Positions 31,794 through 39,025 of a DNA stretch of 64,000 bases are shown here, one piece after another (position 1 is the stretch's first letter; each line of letters starts with the position of its first letter). The stretch spans positions 24,430,001 through 24,494,000 of the forward strand of contig CM075987.1 of NCBI GenBank assembly GCA_038087875.1, written 5' to 3'. Origin of the DNA: Malacoraja senta (Eukaryota). The notes beneath the pieces are model-generated. The model did no database searches and was not told where the DNA came from. It saw only the letters and a program-made list of their open reading frames with translations. Both the position numbers and the translations under genes were made by a program.

Positions 31794-34191
<2,398 letters not shown>

Positions 34192-36898: not shown

Positions 36899-37375
36899 GA
36901 GATAACATCAGAGAAGGGTCTCAAGATCCACCAGGGCAGGAAAAAGTGCCTGAGAGAGCTTGGTGAGGGGCCTCGCATTGACCATTACTTTCTAAGAGGT
37001 TGGCCAAATCAGTCGAGTGAAGCCCAGTGGCAGGTTAACCACCACAGTCCACAGGGTATCAGCACCCCAGGCGAAGCTCAACCAAGTACTGTCCCACCAA
37101 CGGACACGAGTCCAGAGCCCAACCAGCCACAGTCAGCGGTAGAGAGGAAGATGGAAGGGAAAAAGCCGAATGCAGCAGTCACTGGCTGTGGCTGAAGATA
37201 AAAGATGGTGTCTGGGCTGCCACGTGACCACGTAGAGGCTATCAATAAGACACACACCCAGGGCTGATCACCCTGCGGTGGGCCTGCCTCGACTGAGGGT
37301 GTCTTGTGATAAAAGGCCGAAACACCCAGTGACGTTGAGGTACACAACTGAAGATGTGTCTGATTGGTAGCAAAA
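36899..37375 (+). mobile_element. Internally deleted HERO-like (R2-group) non-LTR retrotransposon
   Basis: My translation of 36899-37170 gives EITSEKGLKIHQGRKKCLRELGEGPRIDHYFLRG... (second half of an N-terminal zinc finger). 37165-37227 in another frame gives AECSSHWLWLKIKDGVWAAT* (HERO-type C-terminus). A structured 3' UTR follows. Family assigned by motif recognition, not by search. Confidence 0.72.
37287..37361 (+). ncRNA. Candidate pseudoknotted hammerhead-like RNA with kink-turn
   Basis: GUC site, GAAA and CUGAAGA cores with helices GGGUGU/ACACCC, UUGUG/CACAA and CCUCGAC/GUUGAGG; see findings. Confidence 0.5.
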
Positions 37376-39025
37376 TCACCTCGTGGTCACCCCCAAGAAT
37401 GTCAATTGTTGTGAAAAACCTTAGGGATTGTAACATCCAGTCCTACTAATCAATCTATGACAGGTAATTCTGAGTAAAAAACGTAGAGTTTTTATTCCAT
37501 GGAAGGTTTTGCTATTTTAACTTTTGAGTGCTGATTTATGTATCTATCTAGTTATGATTTATCTAATTATGCCTATCTATATATCTCTTTATGCAGCTCA
37601 CTGTGTGATGTGTCATTGAAGAGGCCCACTAAGCACTCATTAATATTAGACCTTTGAAATCAAGTTTTTGTTGTGTGAATTCAATTGATTGAGCCGCTTA
37701 ATTCATGGCTCAAAACACATTGTCCTGTAGTAATTCAGCATGTCAGGCAGCATCTCTGGAATGAATGGACACTCCATGTTTCAGGTTGGGACCTTTCAAA
37801 GAGTAGACCTTGCCTCACCAAAAGAAAAGGGAAAATTGCAAGATATGACTATTTAAATCAGAAATCAAGTTTTTTTTTTTAAATTTGAGAAACAAAACTA
37901 GCAATCCATTTTGGTTGGCTACTGCCACTATCCCAATGTTAGCTGAGAAGGGACATGTGAATTTTATATTTCAGCATCTAATTTGCTAATATGCTAATAT
38001 TATGTTGGCTATTAGGCATGGGGAGGGAGGGGGGGGAGGGGGAGGGGAAGGGGCATACAGTGAGGTCAAACAATACGTGAAATCTAAAACATGCACATTC
38101 CTAAGGGATGAGATTTACCAACAGGAACTGCCTTGCGTTCCTTTGAATGTAAAACTATACTTTAAAACAATCCAGCAGTCATCTCAGGTAATATATTCCA
38201 CACATCCATCAGCATCTGTTACAGGATTTCCATCTAAATTTTCCAGTTTGCAGACTCCTGGTCTTTTGCCTTTTCTTCCGAAAGTAGCTTTGAAAAGAAA
38301 ATCCATTCTTGATTTTGAAACATGGAGAATATCACTTTCCAGTCTCTTCGTTGCAGTGGGCTTCTTTATCATGCTGATTATGGATACTCAAACACAATCT
38401 TAGCACTTGATATCTTGCCATCGACAAAAAGATGTTTCTTCTTGTCTTGAAGAGGTGCTCCAGGCAACATTTGCAACGTGCCCTTTTACCTGCCTTTTCC
38501 CCCACCGTTCAGGACTACATGCACACATTCAAGGTGAAGCAATAACTTACATGCATTCCTTTCAACCTGATATAAATCCCTCTTCACTGGGTAGAATAAA
38601 TACAGACTGGTTGACCACTTTGCAGAAGACCTCCCTCCGTCTATTCAGTCTGCAATCGTTATCCCAAATCTCTGGCCAAACTGGCATTTCAGTGCCCTGG
38701 TCCGCCCCCAGTCCAATCTAACACAATACAAACTCACAGAACAACAGTTGAGTTGAGTTTAGTTGAGAGATACAGCGTGGAAACAGGCCCTTTGCCCCAC
38801 CGAGTCCACACCGACCATTGATCATCTGTACACTGGTTCTATCCTACATACACCAGGGACAATTCACGGAGAAATATGAAGTCATCCTCTAGGTAGGAAA
38901 AATAGAAAGGCAGGGTTTTGATTAAAGAGTTCATTACTATGAAGCATGAATGTAGGGGTGTCCTTGCTTGTGAATCACTGTTGTAGGTACAGCAAGCAAT
39001 GAGGAAGGGAAATGGAATTTTGGGA

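What the first reader, a model, noticed from the sequence alone, without database searches (positions are those of the whole stretch)
37287..37361. Hammerhead-ribozyme core in a non-canonical pseudoknotted strand order, closed by a kink-turn, in a HERO-like retrotransposon 3' UTR
Seen: all three hammerhead core strands lie within 75 nt. Strand C is GGGUGU-C^-UUGUG (37297-37308, GUC site at 37303). Strand B is AGGCC-GAA-ACACCC (37314-37327). Strand A is CACAA-CUGAAGA-UGUGUCU (37343-37361). Stem III (GGGUGU/ACACCC, 6 bp) and stem I (UUGUG/CACAA, 5 bp) are perfect and abut the core as required. Stem II is weaker: an extra U after A9, G37356-C37318, a bulged U, then GUCU/AGGC. Established: natural types I, II and III use orders ABC, BCA and CAB; here the order is CBA, which cannot be nested, so standard descriptors would miss it. 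Seen: stem III continues through a 3-nt AGU bulge, tandem G.A/A.G pairs (37331-37332 with 37295-37296), a C.U pair and a 7-bp helix CCUCGAC/GUUGAGG, matching the kink-turn consensus. Inference: the kink would bend the chain back toward stem I, and the short AUAAA linker joins the ends of stems I and II, which are neighbours in the hammerhead fold. R2-group elements are known for 5' HDV-like ribozymes; I know of no description of this 3' architecture but cannot check the literature. Cleavage would cut the element's own 3' end, so it may be regulated, re-ligating, or a structural RT-binding fold only.
Basis: partly seen in the sequence, partly recalled or inferred. Interest (0 to 1): 0.88.

Follow-up and report, generated by a model that had tools for sequence, protein, structure and literature searches.

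The report
Permuted hammerhead ribozyme in retrotransposon tail
The flagged stretch is the core of a conserved, knotted RNA domain with every hallmark of a self-cutting hammerhead ribozyme wired in an unusual order, and it sits just behind the protein-coding part of a whole group of jumping genes in aquatic animals, where such a ribozyme has not been described.

Summary
The sequence is as described. The motif alone is weak evidence: about 1 chance hit per 300 simulated windows.

Comparison settles it. The window copy (36900-37457) is a 5'-truncated copy of an internally deleted derivative of an R2-group retrotransposon that carries a restriction-like endonuclease.

A covariance model finds the same ~115-nt domain in 52 of 79 unnamed contigs encoding relatives of that protein (35-81% identity), usually just 3' of the ORF.
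- 91.9% of helix cells pair, against 58% when shuffled.
- 35 of 37 pairs change on both sides.
- The hammerhead core is nearly invariant. N7 is free and H17 is C, A or U, never G (0 of 52).

Stems I and III, the kink-turn and the I-to-II linker are confirmed. AGGCC 37314-18 pairs with GGCCU 37281-85, and 37355-61 pairs with 37248-54.

The CBA order is already published as the "type SGC" hammerhead (Eckert et al. 2023). This is a further permutation of it, with the chain ends in a helix inserted between A9 and G10.1.

Cleavage was not tested, and genomic copies show no pile-up of 5' ends at the cleavage site.

The parts
36900..37457 (+). 5'-truncated copy of an ~839-bp internally deleted (non-autonomous) derivative of an R2-group retrotransposon. 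The common 3' end reads ...CUACUAAUCAAU with 0-4 variable extra bases.
   Evidence: copies are 93-98% identical, have variable 5' ends and share one 3' end. The window copy aligns to unit positions 279-839.
37180..37227 (+). Remnant of the C-terminal codons of the parental ORF (...HWLWLKIKDGVWAAT, stop at 37225-27). The matching residues (W-x-W-x-K-R) are invariant or nearly so in relatives.
   Evidence: Read. Compared with P0001, alignment A1 and the upstream flanks of parent copies.
37248..37254 (+). P0, 5' strand (AGACACA). It pairs with 37355-61 and closes the domain.
   Evidence: helix 1 has 8 of 8 pairs changed on both sides and is 91.0% paired.
37255..37280 (+). P2 hairpin. The loop CUGAUCA (37264-70) holds a 6-nt palindrome.
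   Evidence: helix 2 has 8 of 8 pairs covarying and is 91.6% paired; palindromic loops in 30 of 47.
37281..37285 (+). Stem II, 5' strand (G10.1 onward; GGCCU). This is the true partner of 37314-18.
   Evidence: 5 bp or more in 33 of 41; helix 3 is 84.6% paired, 4 of 5 pairs change on both sides, and the 10.1-11.1 pair is GC in 42 and GU in 3 of the 50 rows with letters at both positions.
37287..37293 (+). Outer (bridging) helix, 5' strand. It is the non-canonical stem of the kink-turn. U37294 is position 3n.
   Evidence: helix 4 has 7 of 7 pairs changed on both sides.
37295..37296 (+). Kink-turn G.A / A.G positions on the non-bulged strand.
   Evidence: G in 42 and A in 48 of 52 rows..
37297..37302 (+). 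Stem III, 3'-side strand, ending in U16.1 (37302).
   Evidence: helix 5 is 98.2% paired. U16.1 in 52 of 52.
37303..37303 (+). H17 (C). Cleavage is predicted between 37303 and 37304.
   Evidence: C 21, A 16, U 15, G 0 of 52. The cleavage site follows by analogy with type SGC (PMC10085705, section 14). It was not tested.
37304..37308 (+). Stem I, 3' strand (UUGUG).
   Evidence: The U37305-A37346 pair is A-U in the second family.
37309..37313 (+). Linker from stem I to stem II (AUAAA). It is 2-9 nt in relatives.
37314..37318 (+). Stem II, 3' strand (AGGCC, ending in C11.1).
37319..37327 (+). G12 A13 A14, then A15.1 and the stem III 5'-side strand (GAA-ACACCC).
   Evidence: G12 in 49 of 50; A13, A14 and A15.1 in 50 of 50.
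37328..37333 (+). Kink-turn bulged strand: 3-nt bulge AGU, then G.A / A.G (37331-32), then 3b (C37333, which is T in a subfamily).
37334..37340 (+). Outer (bridging) helix, 3' strand.
37343..37347 (+). Stem I, 5' strand (CACAA), preceded by UA (37341-42).
37348..37354 (+). C3 U4 G5 A6 N7 G8 A9 (CUGAAGA).
   Evidence: C3 46/50, U4 49/50, G5 50/50, A6 49/50, G8 49/49, A9 49/49. N7 is U 27, A 13, C 6, G 3.
37355..37361 (+). P0, 3' strand (UGUGUCU). It starts directly after A9. It is not stem II.
   Evidence: offset 0 in nearly all sequences; helix 1.
37362..37457 (+). 3' tail downstream of the ribozyme domain. It is the presumed module for start of target-primed reverse transcription (inference).
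   Evidence: Shared 3' end of copies. By analogy, the last 67 nt of the R2Tg 3' UTR suffice (PMC12222951, passages).

Best explanation
Window 37248-37361 is one copy of a ~115-nt RNA domain that is a hammerhead-type self-cleaving ribozyme with non-circularly permuted connectivity.

Shown by comparison:
- The order 5' to 3' is: P0a, P2 hairpin, stem II 5' strand, outer helix 5' strand, GA, stem III strand with U16.1, H17, stem I strand, short linker, stem II strand with C11.1, GAAA, stem III strand, 3-nt bulge plus GA, outer helix 3' strand, stem I strand, CUGANGA, P0b.
- Stems I and II are tied at their far ends twice. One tie is the linker. The other is the outer helix, which a kink-turn folds back from the tip of stem III.
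- The chain enters and leaves through helix P0. Together with P2, P0 forms a linker-free four-way junction exactly at the A9/G10.1 step.

Inferred:
- This is the published type-SGC hammerhead with its old ends joined through the kink-turn and new ends opened inside the CUGANGA block.
- The fold places C37303 for in-line attack and cuts between 37303 and 37304.
- The elements lie head to tail. The ribozyme therefore most likely processes multi-unit or read-through transcripts into unit-length RNA with 5'-OH and 2',3'-cyclic phosphate ends. Such ends can be re-joined into circles. This would resemble hammerheads in Penelope-like elements and retrozymes, and the HDV-like ribozyme at the 5' end of R2.

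The copy in the window is a dead, 5'-truncated copy of a non-autonomous derivative. It matters as a representative of the family.
For: Element:
- The family has 1030 first-look candidates.
- A second, autonomous family shares only ~100 nt of 3' UTR around the motif. It has 902 pattern matches against 0 in the control.
- Its 1006-aa ORF has RVT_1 at E = 3e-23. The best PDB matches are R2 proteins.
- CCHC, RPD, ELT and K motifs are invariant in 15 aligned relatives.

Conservation across relatives:
- The strand-order descriptor hits 44 of 79 unnamed contigs. One hit is judged false. U16.1 lies a median 58 nt behind the projected ORF end.
- A covariance model holding only P0, P2, the outer helix and stem III gives 57 matches (E <= 0.01) in 342,560 nt. 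All are in the expected orientation. They fall in 52 of 79 contigs, the window (95.5 bits) and both units of L091.

Structure:
- 91.9% of cells pair, against 58.3% shuffled (0 of 500 shuffles reach it) and at most 41% when partners are slid.
- The covariation score is 0.737 against 0.185.
- 35 of 37 pairs change on both sides.
- Stems I and II were not in the model, yet pair at 96.6% and 84.6%.
- Stem I has 4 or more contiguous pairs in 47 of 50 rows, against 11.9% in a cross-row control.

Core: near-invariant C3, U4, G5, A6, G8, A9, G12, A13, A14, A15.1 and U16.1. N7 is free. H17 is never G. G10.1-C11.1 is kept.

Head-to-tail organisation:
- Same-strand pairs and triples about 3.95 kb apart.
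- L091 units are 98.9% identical.
- The domain lies at both ends of L112 and L123 and at the start of L096 and L103.
- 5' ends run continuously across unit junctions.

Precedent: type-SGC hammerheads cleave in vitro at the predicted site (PMC10085705, section 14). Their supplementary structure line shows the same connections apart from where the ends lie.
Against: - No cleavage assay or RNA-end data. Only contigs were available, and no RNA holder was listed.
- Genomic copies do not pile up at the predicted cut. One independent insertion starts there in the window's family and none in the second family. Two neighbouring control positions gave 0 and 0.
- In 7 of 12 arrays of the window's family, the upstream partial unit runs through an intact site. 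The templates were therefore uncut or re-joined.
- An insertion of helices between A9 and G10.1 has no precedent. Eckert et al. state that known alignments hold at most one or two extra nucleotides there (section 13). It could disturb the A9/G10.1 metal site.
- Type-SGC ribozymes are slow (section 18).
- In a Penelope-like element the hammerhead was dispensable for insertion in vitro and left no RNA-seq ends (PMC11167929, passages).
- 8 of 59 contigs with at least 150 nt of 3' flank lack the domain.
Confidence: 0.75

Rival explanations
1. A structural RNA platform only. The domain adopts a hammerhead-like fold that is kept because the element's protein, or a kink-turn-binding host protein of the L7Ae/SNU13 family, binds it. 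Possible uses are cis-capture of the RNA right after translation, or packaging of two RNAs through the palindromic P2 loop. Under this reading cleavage is absent, suppressed or incidental in vivo.
For: - Genomic copies carry the site uncut, and there is no pile-up of 5' ends at it.
- A kink-turn signature is conserved.
- P2 loops are palindromic in 30 of 47 rows.
- R2 proteins recognise pseudoknotted UTR RNA (PMC12222951, passages).
- The Penelope-like-element hammerhead was not needed for insertion in vitro (PMC11167929, passages).
Against: - Protein binding alone does not explain why exactly the eleven catalytic-core positions of the hammerhead are fixed at the right junction places.
- It also does not explain why N7 is free and H17 is any base but G.
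- An RNA that adopts the active fold with all functional groups should cleave.
- In R2Tg the element needed for reverse-transcription start is the last 67 nt of the UTR. Here a separate ~96-nt tail follows the domain.
Confidence: 0.2
2. A chance co-occurrence of short hammerhead words on an ordinary nested 3' UTR hairpin.
For: - The motif alone is expected about once per 300 windows at this quality.
- The MFE of the isolated stretch is unremarkable.
- There is no Rfam match.
Against: - The domain is present with covarying stems and a fixed core in 52 of 79 distantly related contigs.
- The descriptor gave 44 hits in about 0.28 Mb, where chance predicts fewer than one.
Confidence: 0.01
3. A box C/D-like small RNA module, as in snoRNA-derived retroposons. 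CUGA (37293-96) together with GUGA(C/U)G (37329-34) would form a C'/D'-type kink-turn that recruits snoRNP proteins.
For: The kink-turn strands read like box D (CUGA) and box C (RUGAUGA), best in the T37333 subfamily. This resemblance is recalled from general knowledge of box C/D RNAs.
Against: - No guide regions, no terminal stem and no C/D family match in Rfam, even at E <= 10.
- Position 3n and the base 5' of it vary freely in relatives. Only the generic GA/GA kink-turn core is kept.
- The rest of the domain is fully explained by the hammerhead fold.
Confidence: 0.02

Closest known systems
Type-SGC (HRIMA-1 and variants) non-circularly permuted hammerhead ribozymes. Eckert, Friedrich, Weinberg & Weinberg, NAR 2023 (PMC10085705). 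Read: outline, sections 13, 14, 15 and 18 part 1, and supplement passages.
   Same: - Site block, then GAAA block, then CUGANGA.
- Stem I of about 5 bp.
- A short linker from stem I to stem II.
- A further helix joining the other sides of stems I and II.
- That helix is connected to the tip of stem III.
- All core nucleotides conserved.
- At least two pseudoknots in the core.
   Different: - Here the stem II strand that should follow A9 lies upstream of the site block.
- A9 is followed by helix P0, through which the chain enters and leaves. A hairpin (P2) lies between P0 and G10.1.
- The old SGC ends are joined, so the bridging helix meets stem III through a kink-turn.
- The host is an animal retrotransposon, not the metatranscriptome RNAs found beside hairpin ribozymes.
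- No k-turn, reverse transcriptase or retrotransposon association is mentioned in the text or supplement searched.
Hammerheads in pseudo-LTRs of Penelope-like elements and in retrozymes. Cervera & de la Pena 2014 (PMC4209133) and 2020 (PMC7229834): search listing and start of abstract only. Frangieh et al. 2024 (PMC11167929): abstract and passages.
   Same: - A retroelement organised as full or partial head-to-tail tandems.
- A hammerhead in the untranslated spacer between ORFs.
- Multi-copy transcripts proposed.
- 5'-truncated copies.
   Different: - Those are type I, often minimal or dimeric, hammerheads with canonical strand order.
- They sit in elements with a GIY-YIG endonuclease and telomerase-like RT, or in non-autonomous repeats.
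- Here the element has an R2-type RT plus a PD-(D/E)xK endonuclease, and the ribozyme is permuted and pseudoknotted.
HDV-like ribozyme at the 5' end of R2. Mentioned in PMC13580325 (passages). The primary papers are recalled, not read.
   Same: A self-cleaving ribozyme built into an R2-group element, used to process the element RNA from a longer transcript.
   Different: - A different ribozyme class.
- It lies at the 5' end and cuts at its own 5' edge.
- Here the ribozyme lies about 20 nt behind the stop codon and about 150 nt (first family) to 210 nt (second family) before the element's 3' end.
- No HDV-like match was found in full units of either family.
Pseudoknotted 3' UTR element bound by R2 protein for target-primed reverse transcription (R2Tg and R2Bm; PMC12222951, passages).
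   Same: A conserved, pseudoknotted RNA module in the 3' UTR of an R2-group element.
   Different: [quoted passage not shown]
- It has no hammerhead core.
- Here a separate ~96-nt tail follows the domain.
Kink-turn (Kt-7 / box C/D type). The consensus is recalled.
   Same: Canonical stem, 3-nt bulge, tandem G.A/A.G, a variable 3b.3n position, then a non-canonical stem.
   Different: - Here it joins stem III of a ribozyme to the helix that clamps stems I and II.
- A minority of relatives (11 of 41) lack the strict kink-turn signature. Some of these (for example L124) carry a different asymmetric loop in its place.

Membership tests
Hammerhead ribozyme | Conserved core C3 U4 G5 A6 N7 G8 A9 / G12 A13 A14 / A15.1-U16.1, with H17 not G | tested here: met
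   52 distinct rows: each fixed position is kept in 46-52 of 49-52 rows. N7 is free. H17 is C 21, A 16, U 15, G 0.
Hammerhead ribozyme | Three helices I, II and III abutting the core, kept by compensatory change | tested here: met
   stem I 96.6%, stem II 84.6%, stem III 98.2% paired, with changes on both sides in 3 of 3, 4 of 5 and 5 of 6 pairs. Searches cover the whole of stem I.
Hammerhead ribozyme | G10.1-C11.1 pair next to G12 | tested here: met
   of the 50 rows with letters at both positions, GC in 42, GU in 3 and unpaired in 5.
Hammerhead ribozyme | CUGANGA directly continuous with the stem II strand (A9 followed by 10.1) | tested here: not met
   A9 is followed by P0b. G10.1 lies about 70 nt upstream, after P0a and P2.
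Hammerhead ribozyme | Site-specific self-cleavage 3' of H17 that is abolished by core mutations | not testable with these tools
   No assay was possible. Sequencing runs were available as contigs only.
Hammerhead ribozyme | Match to Rfam hammerhead models | tested here: not met
   no match, even at E <= 10 for L040 and E <= 1 for L091. This is expected for a non-nested permutation.
Type-SGC hammerhead (Eckert et al. 2023) | Uninterrupted blocks in the order S, G, C | tested here: not met
   S, G and the CUGANGA half are in that order. The stem II half of block C lies 5' of S.
Type-SGC hammerhead (Eckert et al. 2023) | A short linker from stem I to stem II, and a helix joining the other sides of stems I and II that connects to the tip of stem III | tested here: met
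   Linker of 2-9 nt. The outer helix lies 0-1 nt after the stem II strand in 26 of the 41 sequences (of the 28 that have an outer helix of 3 bp or more), and 0-3 nt before the stem I strand. The published structure line was seen.
Kink-turn | C stem, 3-nt bulge, tandem G.A/A.G, NC stem | tested here: met
   strict in 30 of 41; the four G/A positions are kept in 42-48 of 45-52 rows. The tight kink and any protein binding are not testable here.
R2 group of non-LTR retrotransposons (restriction-like endonuclease) | A single ORF with RT followed by CCHC and a PD-(D/E)xK endonuclease | tested here: met
   RVT_1. R2 proteins are the best PDB matches. C220, C223, H231, C236, R332-P333-D334, E349-L350-T351 and K365 are invariant in 15 sequences. 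The motif assignment is by eye; no Pfam model matched the endonuclease.
HERO clade | RT phylogeny grouping with the HERO reference elements | not testable with these tools
   No reference sequences are held. Named relatives are from teleosts, lamprey, amphioxus and bivalves. The literature gives HERO as the mostly non-site-specific RLE clade that includes fish elements (PMC4640811 and PMC3636483, passages).
HERO clade | Dispersed, mostly non-site-specific insertions | tested here: met
   Copies lie on many contigs with unrelated flanks.

The most novel reading that the evidence does not exclude
A previously unseen hammerhead architecture: SGC-class wiring, chain ends in a helix inserted at the A9/G10.1 step, a kink-turn clamp and a self-complementary kissing loop. 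It would be the processing and circularising ribozyme of an autonomous R2-group retrotransposon clade spread through aquatic animals. The unit-length RNA would be cut and re-joined into a circle, or paired as a dimer through the P2 loop. It would then be copied by rolling-circle target-primed reverse transcription. This would explain the head-to-tail arrays and the 5' ends that run smoothly across unit junctions.
Probability: 0.25. Interest if true: 0.95.

Novelty: new variant of a known kind. Interest (0 to 1): 0.85.

Why it matters
- Non-circularly permuted hammerheads are so far known only from uncultured RNA found in metatranscriptomes. Here one appears as a conserved part of an autonomous animal retrotransposon clade, so genetics, expression data and biochemistry can be applied to it.
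- It breaks the working rule that the three hammerhead blocks cannot be interrupted. That rule underlies descriptor searches, so more such ribozymes are probably being missed.
- It extends ribozyme use in the R2 group from the 5' HDV-like ribozyme to a 3' hammerhead. It parallels Penelope-like elements and retrozymes, which suggests that tandem retroelements repeatedly recruit self-cleaving RNAs.
- R2-group elements are being engineered for gene insertion. A compact, self-contained processing module with a kink-turn and a possible dimerisation loop is of practical interest.

Tried and rejected
- Rfam: gathering threshold on the window, and E-value threshold on L040 and L091. No ribozyme family matched, and no HDV-like match was found at the 5' ends.
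- Covariation inside the window's family: impossible. The 61 copies aligned with the window copy are near-identical to it in 37270-37375. Only C37333/T is polymorphic.
- A discrete ~295-nt 'solo' element starting at 37165. I first read it as SINE-like or as a ribozyme-made 5' end. It is the deletion breakpoint of the non-autonomous derivative, and those copies continue upstream into the parent ORF.
- A recurrent array boundary at UACAC (window-equivalent 37341), suspected. Rejected: 12 of 13 sites are intact copies. Most carry a point change in the G-block region (often at the C11.1-G12 CpG), one has a 1-nt insertion and one shows no change. Only 1 is truncated.
- Pile-up of genomic 5' ends at the cleavage site: not seen.
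- A third family in the same genome, sought with exclusion patterns: none found with that anchor.
- RNA evidence: no RNA holder was listed. The four runs laid were contigs only. They show that the family is present in four coded organisms but cannot show RNA ends. One contig, L141, stops exactly at H17. I give this no weight, because assembly graphs may also break where the variable stem I begins.
- Earlier findings of this scan: nothing for this place or sequence.
- Box C/D reading of the kink-turn: see the rival explanations.
- I built no consensus of the element. The only profile made is of the ~115-nt RNA domain.
Full report
**1. What is in the window**

A descriptor for the order site / GAAA / CUGANGA with abutting stems finds only this site in the window, on both strands.

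The same descriptor hits 1 of 300 Markov-1 simulations of the window at the observed quality, and 0.02 per window at relaxed quality. In a scan of very many windows, such a motif is not evidence by itself.

Rfam finds nothing. The minimum-free-energy fold of the isolated stretch is ordinary (z = -0.06).

**2. The element**

The stretch lies in a repeat with 1030 first-look candidates in the 1.94-Gb genome. The scored copies are 93-100% identical.
- Copies share one 3' end (...CUACUAAUCAAU plus 0-4 variable bases) and have variable 5' ends. This is typical of non-LTR retrotransposition.
- The window copy spans 36900-37457.
- Longer copies show a unit of about 839 bp arranged head to tail. The 5' ends run continuously across the unit junction.
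- Copies that seemed to start sharply at window-equivalent 37165 continue upstream into a longer ORF. The 839-bp unit is therefore an internally deleted, non-autonomous derivative: a 5' part with a small zinc-finger ORF joined to the last ~295 nt of the parent.

A second, autonomous family was found through a loose end in laid contigs and a pattern search. That search gave 902 matches against 0 in the control, many as same-strand pairs or triples about 3.95 kb apart.
- One array (L091) has units 98.9% identical.
- Its ORF has an RT domain, with R2 proteins as the best solved relatives.
- In an alignment of 15 relatives, CCHC, RPD, ELT and K motifs are invariant. I read these as a restriction-like endonuclease.
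- Named relatives come from teleosts, lamprey, amphioxus and bivalves.

'R2 group' is therefore supported. 'HERO' fits the literature description of a mostly non-site-specific RLE clade with fish members (PMC4640811 and PMC3636483, passages). It could not be tested phylogenetically.

The parental reading frame ends at 37225-27. The motif does lie in the 3' UTR.

**3. Two families, then many**

Only about 100 nt of the two families' 3' UTRs can be aligned, and this island is centred on the motif. Within it:
- H17 changes from C to A, and N7 from A to U.
- The stem I pair U37305-A37346 becomes A-U.
- The outer helix changes at four to five pairs with compensation.
- None of the eleven fixed core positions changes.

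A protein-guided scan of metagenome contigs gave 424 relatives, of which 79 loci were kept (35-81% identity).
- The descriptor demanded only the core plus at least 4 bp in stems I and III. It hit 44 of the 79 loci. One hit (L128, inside the ORF) I judge false.
- U16.1 lies a median 58 nt behind the projected ORF end.
- Of the 36 loci without a strict hit, 20 have under 150 nt of 3' flank.

A covariance model was built from 20 sequences with only the nested helices P0, P2, outer helix and stem III.
- It gave 57 matches at E <= 0.01 in 342,560 nt, all in the expected orientation.
- The matches lie in 52 of 79 loci, the window (37247-37362, 95.5 bits) and both units of L091.
- Of 59 loci with at least 150 nt of 3' flank, 51 carry the domain by one method or the other. 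Eight do not.

**4. The fold**

Comparison of 41 sequences and pair counts on the 57-row model alignment give one consistent structure.

On the alignment as a whole:
- 91.9% of 1765 cells form standard pairs. Shuffles give 58.3% (0 of 500 reach the observed value), and slid partners give at most 41%.
- The covariation score is 0.737 against 0.185.
- 35 of 37 pairs change on both sides.

The alignment was fitted to P0, P2, the outer helix and stem III, so those counts lean toward the structure. Stems I and II were not in the model, yet they pair at 96.6% and 84.6%.

With positions anchored only on H17 and C3, stem I pairs 1-5 are paired in 49, 49, 49, 48 and 42 of 50 rows. It has at least 4 contiguous pairs in 47 of 50 rows, against 11.9% in a cross-row control.

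- The strand after A9 gives at most 2 contiguous pairs with the 11.x strand in 39 of 41 sequences.
- A segment just 5' of the outer helix (window GGCCU 37281-85) gives at least 5 bp in 33 of 41. For representatives this is 83%, against 17% in a cross-locus control.
- It begins with the conserved G10.1 opposite C11.1.

The strand after A9 (37355-61) pairs with 37248-54. This helix, P0, has at least 7 contiguous bp in 29 of 41 sequences. For representatives this is 69%, against 13% in the control.

Between P0 and stem II lies hairpin P2. There are no spare nucleotides at P0a|P2, at P2|G10.1 or at A9|P0b. That is the layout of a perfect four-way junction set into the A9/G10.1 step. The junction geometry is my inference.

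The kink-turn signature is strict in 30 of 41 sequences. It consists of GA next to stem III on one strand, and a 3-nt bulge plus GA on the other, followed by the outer helix. Its four G/A positions are kept in 42-48 of 45-52 rows.

**5. The core**

Counts are from 52 distinct rows, of which 50 are complete.

| Position | Count |
|---|---|
| U16.1 | 52/52 |
| G12 | 49/50 |
| A13, A14, A15.1 | 50/50 each |
| C3 | 46/50 |
| U4 | 49/50 |
| G5 | 50/50 |
| A6 | 49/50 |
| G8 | 49/49 |
| A9 | 49/49 |
| N7 | U 27, A 13, C 6, G 3 |
| H17 | C 21, A 16, U 15, G 0 |

The few deviants are low-scoring, apparently decayed copies.

Free N7, 'anything but G' at position 17, and the kept G10.1-C11.1 and A15.1-U16.1 pairs are the specific signature of catalytically competent hammerheads. 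This rests on established knowledge, restated in PMC10085705.

**6. Relation to what is known**

That work reports 583 predicted examples from metatranscriptomes, five of which cleave in vitro at the predicted site, with all four helices validated by compensatory mutants (PMC10085705, sections 13-15 and 18).

The supplementary structure line reads:
stem III strand - site - stem I strand - linker - stem II strand - GAAA - stem III strand - optional hairpin - [helix strand a - stem I strand - CUGAUGA - stem II strand - helix strand b].

The present domain has the same connections with two differences.
- Strand b runs on, through the kink-turn, into the stem III strand. The SGC ends are therefore joined.
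- The chain is opened between A9 and the stem II strand, by way of P0 and P2.

It is thus a circular permutation of type SGC with block C interrupted. Eckert et al. assumed this cannot occur (section 13).

I found no paper that places a hammerhead in an RLE, R2-group or HERO element. The library does not hold most subscription journals.

**7. What it probably does**

Shown:
- The fold and its conservation directly behind the ORF.
- The head-to-tail organisation of the elements.
- The domain at both ends of L112 and L123, and at the start of L096 and L103.

Inferred: self-cleavage after H17 processes multi-unit or read-through transcripts. The products may be re-joined into circles that would give multi-unit cDNA.

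Against efficient cutting of the RNAs that were actually copied:
- 7 of 12 upstream partial units in arrays of the window's family contain an intact site.
- Only one independent genomic copy starts exactly at the site. Two control positions gave 0 and 0.

The closest functional parallel is the Penelope-like element of Anolis (PMC11167929, passages). There the elements are tandem, the hammerhead was active only with protein present, it was dispensable for insertion in vitro, and it left no RNA-seq ends.

A purely structural, protein-binding role is the main rival, at about 0.2.

**8. Verdict**

- The ribozyme reading is strongly supported by the pattern of conservation, but is untested.
- The strand order is already known.
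- The interrupted-block, kink-turn-clamped version and its home in an autonomous animal retrotransposon clade appear to be new.

Noticed in passing
window 37264-37270; P2 loops in alignment A3 (columns 17-45): The apical loop of hairpin P2 holds a perfect 6-nt palindrome in 30 of 47 rows: UGAUCA 22, UGGCCA 5, and UGUACA, GACGUC and AGUACU once each. Shuffled loops give a mean of 4.1 and a maximum of 10. The centre of the loop changes while staying self-complementary, as expected for a kissing-loop dimerisation signal.
   Followed up: partly
G000 C1 (places listed); L091; L040 (oriented 1151-2283): Both families occur as head-to-tail partial tandems. The units are about 3.95 kb for the autonomous family and about 839 bp for the derivative. 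5' ends are spread continuously across unit junctions, as in Penelope-like elements.
   Followed up: partly
window 36900-37195; L022, L040: The non-autonomous 839-bp unit keeps a small ORF of about 130 aa with a CxC...H...C zinc finger. It is homologous to the N-terminal part of the autonomous element's protein (P0002). The layout recalls the internally deleted 'SIDE' derivatives of R2, which I recall but have not read.
   Followed up: partly
L005, L011-L013, L015-L020, L023-L030: At least 17 loci on small unplaced contigs carry the same insertion with identical flanks. One copy of the element therefore sits inside a larger unit that is itself repeated many times.
   Followed up: no
L171, L173, L175, L180, L182, L183: In genomic copies of the second family the CpG formed by C11.1 and G12 is often decayed to CA or TG. 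This knocks out the hammerhead core, as expected for methylated dead copies.
   Followed up: no
L141 1225-1279: This unnamed contig ends exactly at H17 of the domain. It could reflect an RNA end or merely an assembly break where the variable stem I begins.
   Followed up: no
L128 about 2440-2500: A tRNA-like stretch with box A-like and box B-like words (GGUUCGAGUC) lies between the ORF end and a degenerate copy of the domain.
   Followed up: no
window 31794-34191: A 2.4-kb (CA)n microsatellite with 1199 copies and 83% matches. It explains the ORFs that are open in three frames in this stretch.
   Followed up: yes
L124, L149, L161, L135, L160 (A3 rows): In a subgroup of relatives the kink-turn is replaced by a different asymmetric internal loop. 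For example, 7 nt lie on the 5' strand opposite 1 nt on the 3' strand. The outer helix and the core are kept.
   Followed up: no
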